Below are positions 10,155 through 36,339 of a stretch of DNA of 64,000 bases, piece after piece. Below the pieces are notes generated by a model. It was given only the letters and a program-made list of their open reading frames with translations, ran no database searches and was not told where the DNA came from. The first letter of the stretch is position 1, and each line of letters begins with the position of its first letter. This stretch comes from Candidatus Rokuibacteriota bacterium (GTDB lineage Bacteria > Methylomirabilota > Methylomirabilia > Rokubacteriales > CSP1-6): the NCBI GenBank assembly GCA_003220685.1, contig QHTE01000046.1:51184-115183 (forward strand). The letters are read 5' to 3'. Position numbers and translations under genes: made by a program.

Positions 10155-10715
10155 ATGTCCATCGCACGCGCCGTGAGCCGGACTCTCGTCCTGAGCGCGC
10201 TGGCCGTTCTGGTCCTGGCTAGCGCTGCCGCCGCCCTGGAAGTTGGGCAGAAGGCCCCCGACTTCGCCCTCAACGGGACCGACGGCAAGCCCGTCAAGCT
10301 CTCAGACTTGACGGCCAAGGGGCCCGTCGTCATTTATACCTTCATCGCCGCGTTCACCCCGACCTGAACCCGTGAACTCGCCGGCTTCGAGGCGGCCCTG
10401 CCGCAGTTCGAAGCCGCCGGCGCCCAGGTCGTGGGCGTCAGCACCGATCACCACCTCGCCCTCGCCGCGTGGCAGAAAGACCAGCATTCGAAGCAGCTCC
10501 TCCTCTCGGATTTCCGCCGTCAAATGCTCCCGGCGTACGGGGCGATGGAGACGAACGAGGCGAGCCCCGTCTATCGTTACGCGAAGCGGGCGTACTTCAT
10601 CATCGACAAGACGGGCACCGTCAAATACATGAAGATCATGGACAGCCCGCTGAACCTCCTCGAGCCGGCCGAAGTGCTCGCGGCGGTGAAGGCAGCAAAC
10701 CTGTCCATGAAATGA
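10155..10715 (+). CDS. Selenocysteine-containing peroxiredoxin (BCP/PrxQ-like, AhpC/TSA family), secreted; UGA at 10365-10367 read as Sec
   Basis: ATG 10155 has an AAGGAGG RBS and a Sec-type signal peptide. The 5' and 3' portions are in the same frame, separated only by a TGA at the peroxidatic Cys position: VVIYTFIAAFTPT-U-TRELAGFE aligns to the BCP motif VVLYFYPKDDTPGCTTE. The downstream half (VVGVSTD...LLSDF...YFIIDKTGTV) is the canonical Prx C-terminal half. A strong hairpin starts 11 nt after the UGA. Confidence 0.75.
10379..10422 (+). promoter_or_regulatory. Candidate bacterial SECIS-like hairpin downstream of the in-frame UGA
   Basis: CGCCGGCTTCGA / TCGAAGCC(GCC)GGCG stem with an inner GCGGC-CCT-GCCGC mini-helix. 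It starts 11 nt 3' of the UGA, the same spacing as the E. coli fdhF SECIS. Confidence 0.5.
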
Positions 10716-11668: not shown

Positions 11669-11720
11669 GGCGCGCCTCGACCGGCGGGGCCCCAGCCCCG
11701 CGACGGTCTGCAGCGCGCAC
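11669..11720. repeat. REP-like palindromic intergenic element, copy in reverse orientation
   Basis: Reverse complement GTGCGCGCTGCAGACCGTCGCGGGGCTGGGGCCCCGCCGGTCGAGGCGCGCC matches the copies at 25705 and 34649. It contains the GCGGGGCT/AGCCCCGC hairpin. Confidence 0.6.
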
Positions 11721-11786
11721 GGCGAGTCGAATATACTCGCGTCCGAAGCAGTGGAGGCGGGAGGCGTCCTTCGAACGGAGATGAAT

Positions 11787-24153: not shown

Positions 24154-24277
24154 GGCCCCGATTCTAACGGTATCGGGCCTTTCCGGCCCTGGCGTCGACC
24201 GTGGTATACCGGAAGAGCCACCATATGAAGCGCCCGGTGACCAACCGCGTCAGCGTCCCACGTCCCGGAGGTCTCTC

Positions 24278-24751
24278 GTGACCGGTCTGCGCTTCGGGCA
24301 GGCGGCACCGGGCTTCTCGCTGCCGTCGAGCGCGGGCGGCGAGACGTCCCTGGCCGACTTCAAGGGCAAGGACGTCGTGCTCGTCTTCTATTGCTACGAC
24401 TGGGGGGGCATCTGAACGCCCGAGCTGAGCGACCTGGGCCGGGTCGCCGACGAGATCGCCAGACGGGGCGCCGCCGTGGTCGCCATCAGCGGTGACAGCC
24501 CGTTCTGCCACGCCGCGTTCATGAAGGCGCGCAACTTCCCGTTCGCGCTCCTGAGCGACGTGCACCGCGCGGCGATCCGCGCCTACGGCGTGCTCGACGT
24601 CGATCGCAACGTCGCCTACCGCTCGACCTTCATCGTGGACCGGGACGGCGTGCTCCGCTGGGGGCAGGCCGGCGATCGCGAGATGGTTCGCGACGGGAGC
24701 GAGATCCTCCGCGTGCTCGACGTGATCGAAGGGCTCCGGCGGAAGCGCTGA
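24278..24751 (+). CDS. Selenocysteine-containing peroxiredoxin-like protein (AhpC/TSA thioredoxin fold); UGA at 24413-24415 read as Sec
   Basis: GTG 24278 with GGAGG 6 nt upstream. VLVFYCYDWGGI-U-TPEL aligns residue-for-residue with the Prx active-site VLFFYPLDFTFVCPTEI, placing the in-frame TGA at the peroxidatic Cys. The downstream in-frame half (AVVAISGDSPFCHAAF...LLSDV...RSTFIVDRDGVL) is the Prx C-terminal half. The N-terminal 124 codons of the track ORF 23906..24415 are rejected. Confidence 0.7.
24429..24447 (+). promoter_or_regulatory. Candidate SECIS-like hairpin
   Basis: GCGACC-tgggccg-GGTCGC, starting 13 nt after the UGA. It is shorter than the other two hairpins. Confidence 0.35.
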
Positions 24752-25698: not shown

Positions 25699-25704
25699 GC
25701 GCCG

Positions 25705-25755
25705 TGTGCGCTGCAGGTCGTCGCGGGGCTGGAGCCCCGCCGGCCGAGGCGCACC
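25705..25755. repeat. REP-like palindromic intergenic element (plus orientation)
   Basis: GTGTGCGCTGCAGGTCGTCGCGGGGCTGGAGCCCCGCCGGCCGAGGCGCAC between moxR and the DUF58 gene. Confidence 0.6.
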
Positions 25756-33791: not shown

Positions 33792-34709
33792 TTGACCTCC
33801 GACTCGCTCCACCGGCTTCGCGATCGTCGGTTTCGCCGGCTGCCGGCGCGCCGAGTGCACGGCGAGCGCGACGCGCTCGCGTTCGTGCGCGACGTCGGCT
33901 TCTGCTCGACCTTCTACCGGTTCCCCGAGGGCGTGGCCTGTCTCTGGGAGGCGGTCGCCGGCAGGGCGAACCCGCGCTGGCCCCGGCACTCGCACCACGA
34001 CGCCGGGATCGGCCTCACCTGGGATCTGAAAGACACCCTGCCGGCCACCAAACGCGTGTACTACGGCAAGCTCCTGAAGGGTCGTCCGCTCCTCGTCGCG
34101 CTCGATCTGTTCCCGATGTTCTACACGCTCGTGCGCGGCCGCCAGCGGGCGCGTGACTACCGCGTCGAGTACGAGGCCGGGCGGCTCTCGCACGCGGCGC
34201 GGCGGATCATGGACGCGATGCTCGACGAGCACCCGCAGTACACTCGCGAGCTGCGCGCGAACGTCTTCATGCTGGAGCCCTCGAAGACGCGCGCGTTCGA
34301 GCGCGCGATGGCGGAGCTCCAGCAGGGGCTCTGGCTCGTCAAGAGCGAGGAGCGCTACGAGCCGACCTTCTCGTATCGCTGGGACCTGCTCGAGGCATGG
34401 CTGCCGGACGGCGTGGCCGAGGGCCGCCGGCTCTCGCGCGAGGTGGCCGTAGCCGGGCTGATCGAGCGGTACGCGCGCGGCGCGGTGTTCACGACCGAGC
34501 GCCAGCTCGCGCGCCTCTTCGGCATTCACCCGGACGAAGTCGCGCGGGCCGTGAAGACCCTGGTCCGCGCGCGGACGGTCCGCGCCGACTGCGCGATCGA
34601 CGGCTGGCCCGGGCGCTGGCTGATGCACGCCGCCTCGGGGCGCGGGTCGTGTGCGCTGCAGGCCGTCGCGGGGCTGGGGCCCCGCCGGCCGAGGCGCACG
34701 TATAGATAA
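33792..34709 (+). CDS. Winged-helix DNA-binding domain protein (DUF1006/YcaQ-AlkZ-like), start uncertain
   Basis: The FVRDVGFCSTFYRF and downstream motifs resemble the YcaQ family. The last 19 codons are supplied by the REP-like element. TTG start per the ORF track. Confidence 0.4.
   Translation: MTSDSLHRLRDRRFRRLPARRVHGERDALAFVRDVGFCSTFYRFPEGVACLWEAVAGRANPRWPRHSHHDAGIGLTWDLKDTLPATKRVYYGKLLKGRPLLVALDLFPMFYTLVRGRQRARDYRVEYEAGRLSHAARRIMDAMLDEHPQYTRELRANVFMLEPSKTRAFERAMAELQQGLWLVKSEERYEPTFSYRWDLLEAWLPDGVAEGRRLSREVAVAGLIERYARGAVFTTERQLARLFGIHPDEVARAVKTLVRARTVRADCAIDGWPGRWLMHAASGRGSCALQAVAGLGPRRPRRTYR
34649..34699. repeat. REP-like palindromic intergenic element (plus orientation)
   Basis: GTGTGCGCTGCAGGCCGTCGCGGGGCTGGGGCCCCGCCGGCCGAGGCGCAC, 22 nt upstream of the AhpD-like selenoprotein start. 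Confidence 0.6.
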
Positions 34710-34720
34710 GGAGCTGAGCG

Positions 34721-35548
34721 ATGCCGACGGTCAGACTGAGAGACGCCGAGGAGTACCCGGAGCCCGTCCAGAAGCTCTTCGAGGCCGCGAAGGCGTGGTT
34801 CAAGTACGACTTCGCCCAGCCGCCGGCGATGAGCCGGGTGATGGCGTGGGATCCGGAGCTCGGTGGCTTCCACGGGCGCGCGATGAAACGCGCGATGGGG
34901 CCGGGCGAGTGGAGCCGGGCCGAGAAGGAGATGGTCGCGGCGGTCGTGAGCGGCGTCAACGCCTGCGCCTACTGAGTAGGCGCCCACACTGCAGCCGGGA
35001 AGCTGCAGGGAATGGCCCACGACGCGCCCTGGTACGAGGCCGCGCTGCTGGTGGGCGTCACGAACGCGCTCAACGTCGTCGCCGACTCGCCGCTGGAGTC
35101 GCTCGAGCCGGCGCGCCCGAGCGCCGAGGCGCAGGCGGTGTTCGCCGAGATCCGCGCCTTCTACGAGCGCGCCGACGTGCCGGTGGCCTTCCGCCGCGTG
35201 GCGGCGGACCCGGGCTACCTGGCGGACCTGTGGGGCGCCGCACGGCGCGTGTTCGCCGACAACACACTCACGCGCCGTCACAAGGAGGCGCTGGCGTTCG
35301 CGGTCTCGGTCACGACGCGCTCGCAGTTCGGGACGGCGTTCCATCTCGGCGAGATGCGGCGACTCGGCGTCGGCGAGCGGGGAGTGATGGAGGTGCTCGG
35401 CGTCACGCAGATGTTCTCGAGCTACACCAAGATCGCCGACACGCTCCAGCTCGAGCCCGACATGGACGCCATCGCGGGCGTGGATCCATCACCCGCGCCC
35501 GGCGGTGCCGCGCCCGCGCCCAGGACGCGGCCGCCCGAGGCGCCGTAG
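34721..35548 (+). CDS. Selenocysteine-containing AhpD-like/carboxymuconolactone decarboxylase (CMD) family protein, two-domain; UGA at 34973-34975 read as Sec
   Basis: ATG 34721 with AAGGAG RBS. VSGVNACAY-U-VGAH matches the CMD/AhpD active-site motif NxCxYCxxxH with the TGA at the second Cys (CxxU). The downstream 178 codons are in the same frame and form a second, Cys-less CMD-like half. A CTGCAG palindromic hairpin lies 13 nt after the UGA. Confidence 0.7.
34989..35008 (+). promoter_or_regulatory. Candidate SECIS-like hairpin
   Basis: CTGCAG-ccgggaag-CTGCAG, starting 13 nt after the UGA. Confidence 0.4.
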
Positions 35549-35844
35549 CGCGCGCCGGCGGCTCAGCGGCAGTCCTCGCGAAGCGTCGCGCACGCGACGG
35601 TGAGAAACCGCTGGATGTCCGCGTCGGTGTGGGCGACGACAGTGGGCGGTCAGGGATCGCTACAATCCCGCGAGCGGCCACAGTTGTTGCAGACGATCTT
35701 GCACTGACGCTCTTCCATACGCTCGCCGCAGCGCTCGCAGATGTGCAGCCACTGCGTTCCGGCGGACAACGGTGCGACGTCGGCGCGAACGCGGGTCGGA
35801 GAGGGGCTCGGGCGCGGCTCCATGCCGCTGGTACACTACCCCGC

Positions 35845-36339
35845 ATGGCCGACGACTGGCAAGATCTGGAGTTTCTGCGCCACGTCTTCGACGAGACGCA
35901 GGTGGTCAGAAAGCCCCTCACCGGGATCATCACGGGCTATCACGTGCTGCCCTACATCCTGGTGGGACCGGAGCACGAGCACCCCGGCCGGTCGGTGGAG
36001 GTTCGCGGCCGCATCAAGGTGTCGCCCCGCCTCGTCATCGGCGCCGGCGGCGGACCGACCTACGGTGAGATGTTCAACGAGACCGAGCTGATGGACCAGC
36101 GCCTGATCGCGCGCGTGTTCAGCTTCCGCTACGCCTCGCGCGTCTCCCTCGAGAGCGAGGAGCTCCGGATCCGACGCCAGGAGCGCGACGCCCGCGGCCA
36201 TCTCGAGCGCGTCCTCGAAGAACTGGCGCAGCGCGAGGTCATCAACACCGGGGTCATCGCGACCCCGGACGCGCGCTTCTACCCTGTCTCGATCGACCGC
36301 TTCATCCGCGAGATCCTCGATCAAGAGTTCCGCGAGTAG
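35845..36339 (+). CDS. Hypothetical protein (164 aa)
   Basis: ATG 35845 gives MADDWQDLEFLRHVFDETQ. Codon usage is coherent but no family is recognised. The upstream part of the 562-aa track ORF is rejected. Confidence 0.45.
   Translation: MADDWQDLEFLRHVFDETQVVRKPLTGIITGYHVLPYILVGPEHEHPGRSVEVRGRIKVSPRLVIGAGGGPTYGEMFNETELMDQRLIARVFSFRYASRVSLESEELRIRRQERDARGHLERVLEELAQREVINTGVIATPDARFYPVSIDRFIREILDQEFRE

What the first reader, a model, noticed from the sequence alone, without database searches (positions are those of the whole stretch)
34721..35548. AhpD-like (CMD family) two-domain protein with CxxU active site encoded by UGA
VNACAY-TGA-VGAH reproduces the AhpD/CMD catalytic motif NxCxYCxxxH with the TGA replacing the second Cys. 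The frame continues for 178 more codons into a second, Cys-less CMD-like half. A CTGCAG/CTGCAG hairpin begins 13 nt after the UGA. AhpD-like is a recognised Sec-utilising family, which makes this the third peroxide-related selenoprotein in 25 kb. A REP-like element sits 22 nt upstream of the start.
Basis: partly seen in the sequence, partly recalled or inferred. Interest (0 to 1): 0.85.

Follow-up and report, generated by a model that had tools for sequence, protein, structure and literature searches.

The report
Selenocysteine-containing AhpD-like redox protein gene
This is one real gene for a 275-residue AhpD/CMD-family redox protein whose active-site residue is selenocysteine, encoded by an in-frame UGA; public annotations wrongly split it in two, but AhpD-like selenoproteins of this kind are already known.

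Summary
Window 34721-35548 (+) is a single gene with an in-frame TGA at 34973-34975, from a Candidatus Rokuibacteriota (Methylomirabilota) genome.

- **Domains:** the read-through product has two CMD/AhpD domains. The first carries E70...C82-A-Y-U85-V-G-A-H89. The second has no redox Cys.
- **TGA conservation:** all 21 homologous loci examined (39-92% identity, including a Tectomicrobia MAG) have TGA at the same column. Both flanks are under purifying selection.
- **Cys homologs:** full-length two-domain relatives have Cys at that column (hhalign E = 7.6e-58, end to end).
- **SECIS:** a 7-bp hairpin with a CGGGAA loop, starting 13 nt after the UGA, meets the published bacterial SECIS model. 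It is nucleotide-invariant in 15 orthologs, synonymous sites included, and shows compensatory changes in divergent members.
- **Sec machinery:** tRNA-Sec and selA lie 3-6 kb from the ortholog in two related genomes. They were not seen in this window.
- **UGA as stop:** TGA ends about half of the other window genes, so it is not reassigned genome-wide.

CxxU AhpD-like and CMD-like selenoproteins have been known since 2005-2008, and Methylomirabilota is reported to be selenoprotein-rich. This is therefore a new member of a known kind and an annotation correction. No conserved thioredoxin or peroxiredoxin partner is adjacent, so the substrate is inferred only.

The parts
34708..34713 (+). Shine-Dalgarno AAGGAG, 7 nt before the start codon
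   Evidence: Read directly from the sequence. Most orthologs start with MPTVRLR at the equivalent ATG; one (L007) reads VPTVRLR from GTG.
34721..35548 (+). Complete selenoprotein coding sequence, 275 residues (84 + Sec + 190), stop TAG at 35546-35548. Public records split it into 84-aa and 178-aa ORFs.
   Evidence: Both halves are conserved and under purifying selection. Full-length Cys homologs are collinear with it.
34928..34930 (+). Glu70 codon, the predicted proton-relay Glu (equivalent of M. tuberculosis AhpD Glu118)
   Evidence: Invariant in orthologs and in the divergent Sec clade. The offset to the TIGR00777 profile (residue 66 = position 114) places it at position 118 (weak hit). Residue roles are from my own knowledge of MtAhpD.
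34964..34987 (+). Redox motif C82-A-Y-U85-V-G-A-H89
   Evidence: C82, Y84, U85 and H89 are invariant in the Sec clade. The motif aligns with C-x-Y-C-x-x-x-H of the Cys homologs and of the 2oyo/2pfx structures.
34973..34975 (+). In-frame UGA read as selenocysteine (U85)
   Evidence: TGA at the same column in 15 species-level orthologs and in 6 divergent homologs of 39-54% identity. The column holds Cys in 7 of 10 distant full-length relatives.
34989..35008 (+). Bacterial SECIS hairpin: 5' arm 34989-34995 (CUGCAGC), loop 34996-35001 (CGGGAA), 3' arm 35002-35008 (GCUGCAG)
   Evidence: Hairpin energy is -12.4 kcal/mol, with 20 nt between the UGA and the loop and G at loop position 2. These meet the criteria quoted in PMC13188914. 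Seven consecutive codons are codon-invariant in 15 orthologs. In the 18-sequence alignment 94.4% of cells are paired and 3 of 7 pairs show double changes.
34880..35014 (+). First CMD/AhpD core domain (best Pfam stretch, residues 54-98), carrying the CxxU centre
   Evidence: Pfam PF02627 at 59.8 bits and TIGR00778 at 48.2 bits.
35228..35443 (+). Second CMD-like domain (residues 170-241) with no redox Cys or Sec, presumed structural
   Evidence: Pfam CMD at 29.7 bits for the C-terminal half alone, profile positions 7-78 of 84. The AF2 model of Cys homolog P0178 shows two six-helix repeats.
34645..34702 (+). REP-like 58-nt palindromic repeat just upstream. It is context only, not a conserved part of the gene.
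   Evidence: Three copies in the window. It folds at -40.1 kcal/mol and is tandemly duplicated in strain contig L016. It is absent upstream of the orthologs in other species.

Best explanation
Window 34721-35548 (+) is one gene encoding a 275-residue selenoprotein of the AhpD/carboxymuconolactone-decarboxylase (CMD) superfamily.

**Translation.** It starts at ATG 34721. When the ribosome reaches UGA 34973, the hairpin at 34989-35008 acts as a bacterial SECIS. It recruits SelB-GTP-Sec-tRNA(Sec), so selenocysteine is inserted instead of terminating.

**Protein.** It has two all-helical CMD repeats. The N-terminal repeat carries the redox centre C82-x-x-U85 with H89 and E70. These correspond to Cys130, Cys133, His137 and Glu118 of M. 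tuberculosis AhpD. The C-terminal repeat is a degenerate, Cys-less copy that probably completes the fold.

**Chemistry (inferred).** The U85 selenolate is the attacking nucleophile on a hydroperoxide, or on an oxidised partner such as a peroxiredoxin sulfenate or disulfide. C82 then resolves the intermediate into an intramolecular selenenylsulfide. A thiol reductant regenerates the reduced enzyme.

**Shown:** the gene structure, the conservation of the TGA, the Sec/Cys pairing, the SECIS conservation and covariation, the domain identity, and the presence of selC and selA in related genomes.

**Inferred:** actual Sec insertion, the chemistry, and the substrate and reductant. My confidence in the selenoprotein reading is 0.93. 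My confidence in a specifically peroxide or peroxiredoxin role is only about 0.5.
For: - **TGA conservation:** TGA is at the same column in 15 orthologous loci of 67-92% identity and in 6 divergent homologs of 39-54% identity. One of these is from a Candidatus Tectomicrobia MAG.
- **Both sides are coding:** third-position GC is 0.94 and 0.93. dN/dS is about 0.09-0.29 upstream and 0.13-0.49 downstream of the TGA in the 11 closer orthologs.
- **No independent downstream gene:** the 12 codons between the TGA and the next ATG encode invariant residues including H89. The ATG at 35012 is missing in four of the six divergent homologs.
- **Cys homologs:** full-length two-domain proteins of 247-275 aa have C-x-Y-C at the column. 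The profile-profile alignment gives 100% probability and E = 7.6e-58 over 254 columns.
- **Family:** CMD 59.8 bits, ahpD_dom 48.2 bits, second half 29.7 bits. The nearest solved structures are AhpD-fold peroxidase-related proteins (2oyo, 2pfx, 6k40), with both halves aligning. The AF2 model of Cys homolog P0178 (pLDDT 89.4) hits only AhpD/CMD folds among its best matches: 2q0t, 2oyo, 6k40, 1knc.
- **SECIS:** it meets the published model of 7-bp stem, 6-nt loop with G at position 2, 20-nt spacing and -12.4 kcal/mol. Codons 90-96 (ACT GCA GCC GGG AAG CTG CAG) are codon-invariant in 15 orthologs. Elsewhere only about 10 of 110 degenerate, amino-acid-invariant columns are codon-invariant. There is covariation at 3 of 7 pairs.
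- **Machinery:** tRNA-Sec (Rfam RF01852, 71.3 and 67.9 bits) lies 3.0 and 5.7 kb from the ortholog in L011 and L008. A selA equivalog (TIGR00474, 578 bits) is in L011.
- **UGA is still a stop:** TGA terminates about half of the window's genes.
- **Other Sec candidates:** two further genes in the window have TGA at the peroxidatic-Cys position of AhpC/TSA peroxiredoxins.
- **Literature:** AhpD-like CxxU selenoprotein families are established (PMC2398784; PMC13188914). A Methylomirabilota MAG is reported with 63 selenoprotein genes.
Against: - No selA, selB, selC or selD lies within the 64-kb window, so the machinery of this particular genome was not seen.
- The hairpin's folding energy is not exceptional against shuffles of this 70% GC sequence (z = -0.82 and -0.36). 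Its support comes from conservation, not thermodynamics.
- There is no conserved gene neighbourhood and no adjacent thioredoxin, peroxiredoxin or lipoamide partner, so the substrate is unsupported by context.
- The protein falls below the cut-offs of every curated AhpD subfamily model: TIGR01926 53.1 vs 81.8, NF041238 31.8 vs 175, TIGR00777 13.4 vs 192.
- The structural model is of a 26%-identical Cys homolog, not of the window protein.
- There is no experimental evidence of Se incorporation.
Confidence: 0.93

Rival explanations
1. The TGA is a genuine stop. On this view the locus holds two separate small genes (84 aa and 178 aa), or a split or decaying CMD gene, as all public annotations show.
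For: NCBI, JGI and ENA gene calls all give 84-aa plus 178-aa ORFs. An ATG at 35012 follows the TGA. TGA is a normal stop in this genome.
Against: - An identical TGA column in 21 independent assemblies across 39-92% identity argues against both decay and sequencing error.
- The 12 codons between the TGA and ATG 35012 are conserved in frame and contain the catalytic His. They would be untranslated on this reading.
- The downstream ATG is not conserved (L021, L026, L028 and L020 have none there).
- The 84-aa piece would end one residue short of completing the CxxC motif.
- Cys homologs are single polypeptides.
Confidence: 0.03
2. The UGA is read through, but not as selenocysteine. Possibilities are near-cognate or suppressor insertion of Cys, Trp or Gly, or a lineage-wide UGA reassignment.
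For: The Sec machinery was not seen in the window itself. One distant relative has Gly and another Ser at the column (P0198, P0192).
Against: - TGA ends about half of the window's genes, so there is no reassignment.
- A nucleotide-invariant, covarying hairpin at the canonical SECIS distance is what SelB-dependent decoding needs.
- tRNA-Sec and selA are present next to orthologs.
- The column is a redox Cys, the classical Sec/Cys pair.
Confidence: 0.03
3. It is a selenoprotein, but its job is not peroxide or peroxiredoxin reduction. CMD-fold CxxC proteins also carry out other thiol chemistry, for example the reductive debrominase Bmp8. The protein could act on another electrophile, or in selenium or arsenic handling.
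For: - There is no conserved Prx/Trx neighbour.
- It falls below the cut-off of all curated peroxidase-related subfamilies.
- The fold search also retrieves Bmp8 debrominase (6ohi/6ohj) and decarboxylase-annotated CMD proteins (2q0t, 4g9q).
- In L011 the ortholog lies near ArsR, ArsM, tRNA-Sec and selA.
Against: - The Glu...C-x-x-C/U-x-x-x-His constellation matches the AhpD redox centre.
- The closest sequence relatives with solved structures are 'peroxidase-related' or AhpD proteins.
- Two Sec-peroxiredoxin genes are in the same 25 kb.
- The L011 neighbourhood is not conserved in the window or in L008.
Confidence: 0.3

Closest known systems
AhpD-like / CMD-like CxxU selenoprotein families (AhpD-like 1, COG2128/TIGR01926; AhpD-like 2 / CMD-like, PF02627), described from Sargasso Sea and GOS metagenomes and listed in the 2026 review
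   Same: CMD/AhpD domain, with Sec replacing the second Cys of the CxxC redox motif (CxxU). The SECIS lies in the coding sequence immediately downstream, and Cys homologs exist.
   Different: The window protein has two full CMD domains (275 aa) with an insertion of about 70 residues relative to TIGR01926-type proteins. It scores below the TIGR01926 cut-off (53.1 vs 81.8). It gave no reportable hit (E <= 1) to NF041047 and only 31.8 bits to NF041238. It comes from Rokubacteria or Tectomicrobia soil and groundwater lineages rather than marine samples.
TIGR01926 'peroxidase-related enzyme' structures 2oyo (Deinococcus geothermalis) and 2pfx (Silicibacter sp. TM1040)
   Same: These are the best sequence matches among solved structures. 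The N-terminal motif E-x-E-[LM]-[IV]-A-V-V-V-S-x-[IV]-N-x-C-x-Y-C-x-x-x-H aligns with residues 6-94. The C-terminal half aligns with residues 182-247.
   Different: They use Cys, not Sec. They are 191-196 aa and lack the segment of roughly residues 100-180. Their function is also uncharacterised.
Mycobacterium tuberculosis AhpD (1knc/1gu9; TIGR00777)
   Same: All-helical AhpD fold (via the Cys homolog). Glu, C-x-x-C and His fall at profile positions 118, 130, 133 and 137, matching E70, C82, U85 and H89 (offset; residue roles from my own knowledge).
   Different: The hit is only 13.4 bits against a 192-bit cut-off. In MtAhpD the redox centre is in the C-terminal repeat of a 177-aa protein and the gene sits next to ahpC. 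Here the centre is in the N-terminal repeat and no ahpC is adjacent.
Two-domain CMD protein Bxe_B0980 from Burkholderia xenovorans (2q0t, 258 aa)
   Same: This is the best full-length structural match to the family's Cys homolog model (TM 0.64-0.69), with the same two-CMD-repeat size class.
   Different: Sequence identity is 16%, it is annotated as a putative gamma-carboxymuconolactone decarboxylase subunit, and it contains no Sec.

Membership tests
Pfam CMD (PF02627) / AhpD core domain (TIGR00778) | HMM score at or above the curated cut-off | tested here: met
   PF02627 scores 59.8 bits against 23. TIGR00778 scores 48.2 against 27.8. The C-terminal half alone scores 29.7 against 23.
Pfam CMD (PF02627) / AhpD core domain (TIGR00778) | All-helical AhpD-like fold | tested here: inconclusive
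   Tested only on Cys homolog P0178 (26% identical; hhalign E = 7.6e-58 to the Sec clade). Its AF2 model has pLDDT 89.4 and its best PDB matches are all AhpD/CMD folds. The tool would not accept the window read-through sequence.
Redox-active AhpD-type centre | Glu ... C-x-x-C(U)-x-x-x-H constellation | tested here: met
   E70, C82, U85 and H89 are invariant in the Sec clade. They align with the same residues in 2oyo/2pfx and in the Cys homologs.
Bacterial selenoprotein gene | In-frame UGA conserved in homologs, with coding conservation on both sides | tested here: met
   21 of 21 loci have the TGA. dN/dS is well below 1 on both sides in the 11 closer orthologs.
Bacterial selenoprotein gene | UGA column aligns with Cys in homologs (Sec/Cys pair) | tested here: met
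   Seven of ten distant full-length relatives have Cys at the column.
Bacterial selenoprotein gene | bSECIS: 3-9 nt loop, 4-16 bp stem, G in the first two loop positions, 16-37 nt from the UGA, energy at or below -7.5 kcal/mol | tested here: met
   6-nt loop CGGGAA, 7-bp stem, 20-nt spacing, -12.4 kcal/mol. It is nucleotide-invariant and covaries.
Bacterial selenoprotein gene | selA, selB, selC and selD present in the same genome | not testable with these tools
   None lies in the 64-kb window. selC is in ortholog loci L008 and L011, and selA is in L011. selB and selD were not seen. The rest of this genome could not be reached.
Bacterial selenoprotein gene | Selenium demonstrated in the protein | not testable with these tools
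   Needs 75Se labelling or mass spectrometry.
TIGR01926 peroxidase-related enzyme (the 'AhpD-like protein' selenoprotein family) | HMM score at or above 81.8 bits | tested here: not met
   53.1 bits in 3 stretches. It is related to this subfamily but outside it.
NF041238 AhpD_rel_CFYUT (seleno)protein | HMM score at or above 175 bits | tested here: not met
   31.8 bits, covering the motif region only.
TIGR00777 AhpD (M. tuberculosis type) | HMM score at or above 191.95 bits, and an ahpC neighbour | tested here: not met
   13.4 bits. No adjacent ahpC was found.

The most novel reading that the evidence does not exclude
This could be a distinct two-CMD-domain subfamily that is essentially obligately selenocysteine-dependent. 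No Cys form was found above about 35% identity among 1.84 billion representative proteins. The subfamily is shared by Rokubacteria and Tectomicrobia, and no curated selenoprotein model covers it. Together with the two Sec-peroxiredoxins nearby, it might form a selenium-based peroxide-defence set in these uncultured soil phyla. Its occasional position beside selC and selA might reflect a link to maintenance of the Sec trait.
Probability: 0.2. Interest if true: 0.45.

Novelty: new member of a known kind. Interest (0 to 1): 0.3.

Why it matters
- **Annotation error:** the gene is split in every public record I saw. The protein search returned 1313 clusters, and all but one or two of the 120 listed are C-terminal fragments. 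NCBI names the fragments 'carboxymuconolactone decarboxylase family protein'.
- **Practical use:** the 21-locus alignment, the Sec/Cys pairing and the SECIS consensus given here would allow a family model that annotates the gene correctly.
- **Biology:** it adds a well-supported case, with covariation evidence for its SECIS, to the large selenoproteome reported for Methylomirabilota. It also shows three Sec-dependent redox genes within 25 kb.
- **Limit:** it does not change what is known about how AhpD-like selenoproteins work.

Tried and rejected
- The exhaustive representative search and the structure predictor accept only exact window sequences. I searched with the 190-aa post-TGA part instead and modelled a Cys homolog.
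- **Rfam gathering scan of the window.** It found only two tRNAs, no tRNA-Sec and no named SECIS family.
- **Thermodynamic test of the hairpin.** It is not significant against shuffles in this GC-rich sequence, so I did not use it as evidence.
- **Promoter and terminator scan.** Nothing was found in 34400-35900.
- **Synteny with thioredoxin or peroxiredoxin.** None exists within 10 kb either side, and there is no conserved neighbourhood among divergent homologs.
- **Local tblastn/blastn of L011 selA and tRNA-Sec against the window.** No hit.
- **P0146 (227 aa).** It looked like a full-length read-through form but is a frameshifted translation and uninformative.
- **Genome-wide UGA reassignment, pseudogene or assembly error, and two independent genes.** All rejected; the reasons are under the rival explanations.
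- **REP-like element as part of the gene's control region.** Rejected as a conserved feature, because it is absent upstream of orthologs in other species.
Full report
**1. Observation.**
The region reads as the first-stage reader said.
- An AAGGAG Shine-Dalgarno at 34708-34713 precedes ATG 34721.
- Eighty-four codons later the frame reads ...V-N-A-C-A-Y-TGA(34973-34975)-V-G-A-H... and stays open to TAG at 35546-35548.
- One hundred and ninety sense codons follow the TGA.
- Per-position GC (1st/2nd/3rd) is 0.66/0.49/0.94 upstream and 0.75/0.53/0.93 downstream, the same coding signature on both sides.
- The first CTGCAG begins 13 nt after the UGA. The stem is 7 bp (34989-34995 with 35002-35008) and the loop is CGGGAA.

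**2. Organism and public annotation.**
- The closest database proteins are C-terminal fragments of about 178 aa from Candidatus Rokuibacteriota / Methylomirabilota MAGs.
- On contigs carrying the identical sequence, gene callers give an 84-aa ORF with no Pfam hit, followed by a 178-aa ORF with a weak CMD hit. The gene is therefore split in public records.

**3. Is the TGA a sense codon?**
- A scan of one genome per GTDB species returned 15 loci with 67-92% amino-acid identity. Fourteen of them span the whole read-through product; L014 is cut by a contig end and starts at residue 81.
- Every one has TGA at the same column, inside A-C-x-Y-*-V-x-A-H-T-A-A-G-K-L-Q-G-M.
- An exhaustive HMMER search of 1.84 billion representatives with the post-TGA part found only 219 relatives.
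- I fetched the DNA of six divergent relatives (39-54% identity). One is from a Candidatus Tectomicrobia MAG. All six again have TGA at that column and are again annotated as a pair of ORFs, 63-85 aa plus 168-193 aa.
- Nei-Gojobori estimates give dN/dS of about 0.09-0.29 for codons 1-84 and 0.13-0.49 for codons 98-260 in the 11 closer orthologs. Both parts are translated and constrained.
- The ATG at 35012 is not conserved in four of the six divergent homologs. The 12 codons it would skip include the invariant His89.
- TGA ends 24 of the 48 ORFs called in the window, three of which are the candidate Sec codons. UGA is therefore not reassigned genome-wide.

**4. Sec/Cys pairing.**
- The same exhaustive search also returned full-length proteins of 247-275 aa with the same two-domain layout.
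- Seven of the ten I aligned carry C-x-Y-C-[IV]-x-x-H, with the second Cys in the TGA column. The other three have Gly, Ser or Phe there.
- A profile-profile comparison of the Sec clade against these proteins gives 100% probability and E = 7.6e-58. It aligns 254 columns from residue 1 to about residue 251.
- This is the classical signature of a selenoprotein. It also shows that the two 'ORFs' are one polypeptide.

**5. SECIS.**
- The published bacterial SECIS model requires a 3-9 nt loop, a 4-16 bp stem, G in the first two loop positions, 16-37 nt between the UGA and the loop, and an energy of -7.5 kcal/mol or lower (PMC13188914).
- The hairpin has a 6-nt loop CGGGAA, a 7-bp stem, 20-nt spacing and -12.4 kcal/mol, so it meets all four criteria.
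- Its stability is not unusual against shuffles of this 70% GC sequence. The evidence is evolutionary instead.
- In the orthologs the 21 nt ACTGCAGCCGGGAAGCTGCAG are identical.
- In the codon alignment of 15 of these sequences, seven consecutive codons (90-96) are codon-invariant, among them the GC-poor ACT and GCA. Elsewhere only about 10 of 110 degenerate, amino-acid-invariant columns are codon-invariant.
- Synonymous divergence is lower across codons 86-97 than in either flank in most pairwise comparisons.
- Among the divergent homologs the stem changes but stays paired: U-A to G-U in L021 and A-U to U-A in L024, with the loop becoming GGUA in L024.
- Over 18 sequences 94.4% of cells are paired, 3 of 7 pairs show changes on both sides, and no shuffle out of 500 reaches the observed covariation score. 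The tool's caveat about related sequences applies to that control.

**6. Sec machinery.**
- The window has no tRNA-Sec and no selA.
- ARAGORN and Rfam find tRNA-Sec (RF01852, 71.3 and 67.9 bits against a gathering score of 47) 3.0 kb and 5.7 kb downstream of the ortholog in L011 and L008.
- L011 also encodes a selA equivalog (TIGR00474, 578 bits against a cut-off of 268) 1.3 kb beyond the tRNA.
- The window holds two more genes with TGA at the peroxidatic-Cys position of AhpC/TSA peroxiredoxins (TGA at 10365 and 24413; 111.8 and 123.1 bits for the read-through products).
- A 2026 review reports a Methylomirabilota MAG with 63 predicted selenoprotein genes.
It could not be tested for this exact genome.

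**7. What the protein is.**
- The read-through product passes Pfam CMD (59.8 bits) and the AhpD core domain TIGR00778 (48.2 bits). The second half alone passes CMD at 29.7 bits, covering residues 170-241.
- The best solved relatives are 'peroxidase-related' AhpD-fold proteins (2oyo, 2pfx, 6k40). Their N- and C-terminal halves align with residues 6-94 and 182-247. The window protein thus has about 70 extra residues in between.
- The weak TIGR00777 hit places E70, C82, U85 and H89 at profile positions 118, 130, 133 and 137. From my own knowledge of the literature, these are the Glu-Cys-Cys-His numbers of M. tuberculosis AhpD, with Cys133 as the nucleophile.
- An AlphaFold model of Cys homolog P0178 (pLDDT 89.4, pTM 0.87) shows two six-helix repeats. 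Its best PDB matches are all AhpD/CMD folds, and the closest is the two-domain protein 2q0t. This is indirect evidence, because the window sequence itself could not be submitted.

**8. Mechanism and its limits.**
- The most likely mechanism is SelB- and SECIS-dependent insertion of Sec at position 85. The U85 selenolate then attacks a peroxide or an oxidised partner, C82 resolves the intermediate to a selenenylsulfide, and a thiol reductant regenerates the enzyme.
- Gene context gives no help. Upstream is an AlkZ-related gene (106.5 bits). Downstream are unannotated genes and a methyltransferase.
- No thioredoxin or peroxiredoxin lies within 10 kb of the gene on the downstream side, and the nearest peroxiredoxin upstream is the Sec-Prx about 10 kb away.
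- The divergent homologs sit in unrelated neighbourhoods containing UbiD, amidohydrolase, ABC transporter and TetR genes.
- A non-peroxide role therefore stays open, and I give it about 0.3. CMD-fold enzymes such as the debrominase Bmp8 also appear among the fold matches.

**9. Comparison with what is known, and novelty.**
- AhpD-like 1 (COG2128, CxxU) and AhpD-like 2 (PF02627, CxxU) selenoproteins were described from marine metagenomes (PMC2398784).
- The 2026 review lists AhpD-like (TIGR01926), CMD-like (PF02627), a distant AhpD homolog (NF041047) and an AhpD-related family (NF041238), all with CxxU.
- The window protein works like these and belongs to the same domain family. It fails the cut-offs of the curated subfamily models: TIGR01926 53.1 vs 81.8, NF041238 31.8 vs 175, TIGR00777 13.4 vs 192.
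- It has a distinctive architecture of two full CMD domains.
- I therefore class it as a new member of a known kind. The practical consequence is an annotation correction. My interest score is 0.3.

**10. Side observation on the REP-like element.**
- The 58-nt palindrome at 34645-34702 (-40.1 kcal/mol) has two more copies in the window.
- It is tandemly duplicated in one strain-level contig (L016) and absent upstream of orthologs in other species.
- It is a mobile or repetitive intergenic element, not part of the selenoprotein gene's conserved anatomy.

Noticed in passing
window ~10155-10715 (+), TGA at 10365-10367: A peroxiredoxin (AhpC/TSA, 111.8 bits for the read-through product) with in-frame TGA at the peroxidatic-Cys position (FTPT-U-TRE, the known TxxU Prx type). 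A strong hairpin follows the TGA (-27.1 kcal/mol, z = -2.4).
   Followed up: partly
window ~24270-24751 (+), TGA at 24413-24415: A second AhpC/TSA peroxiredoxin (123.1 bits for the read-through product) with in-frame TGA in WGGI-U-TPE. I did not check whether the TGA is conserved in orthologs.
   Followed up: partly
window 34645-34702 (+), 25703-25754 (+), 11672-11721 (-); L016 9569-9626 and 9634-9691: A 58-nt REP-like palindromic repeat (-40.1 kcal/mol) with three copies in the window, all intergenic or at gene ends. It is tandemly duplicated in one strain contig (L016) and single in three others (L017-L019), which suggests a mobile or expandable element. The AlkZ-related ORF (33792-34709) reads through the copy at 34645-34702 for its last ~20 codons.
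   Followed up: partly
L011 9851-9948 and 11284-12729; L008 12457-12554: tRNA-Sec lies 3.0 and 5.7 kb downstream of the AhpD-like ortholog in two Methylomirabilota species. selA follows in L011, with ArsR and an arsenite methyltransferase (NF008823, 379 bits) in between. This proximity is not conserved in the window.
   Followed up: partly
proteins P0198, P0192, P0170 (alignment A1): Distant full-length relatives have Gly, Ser or Phe at the Sec/Cys column. P0170 has also lost the first Cys. These may be redox-inactive derivatives of the family.
   Followed up: no
window 35650-35823 (-): A 57-aa ORF with two CxxC pairs (CERCG...CNNCG), zinc-ribbon-like, immediately downstream of the AhpD-like gene on the opposite strand. 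It has no Pfam hit and is not called in the public annotation.
   Followed up: no
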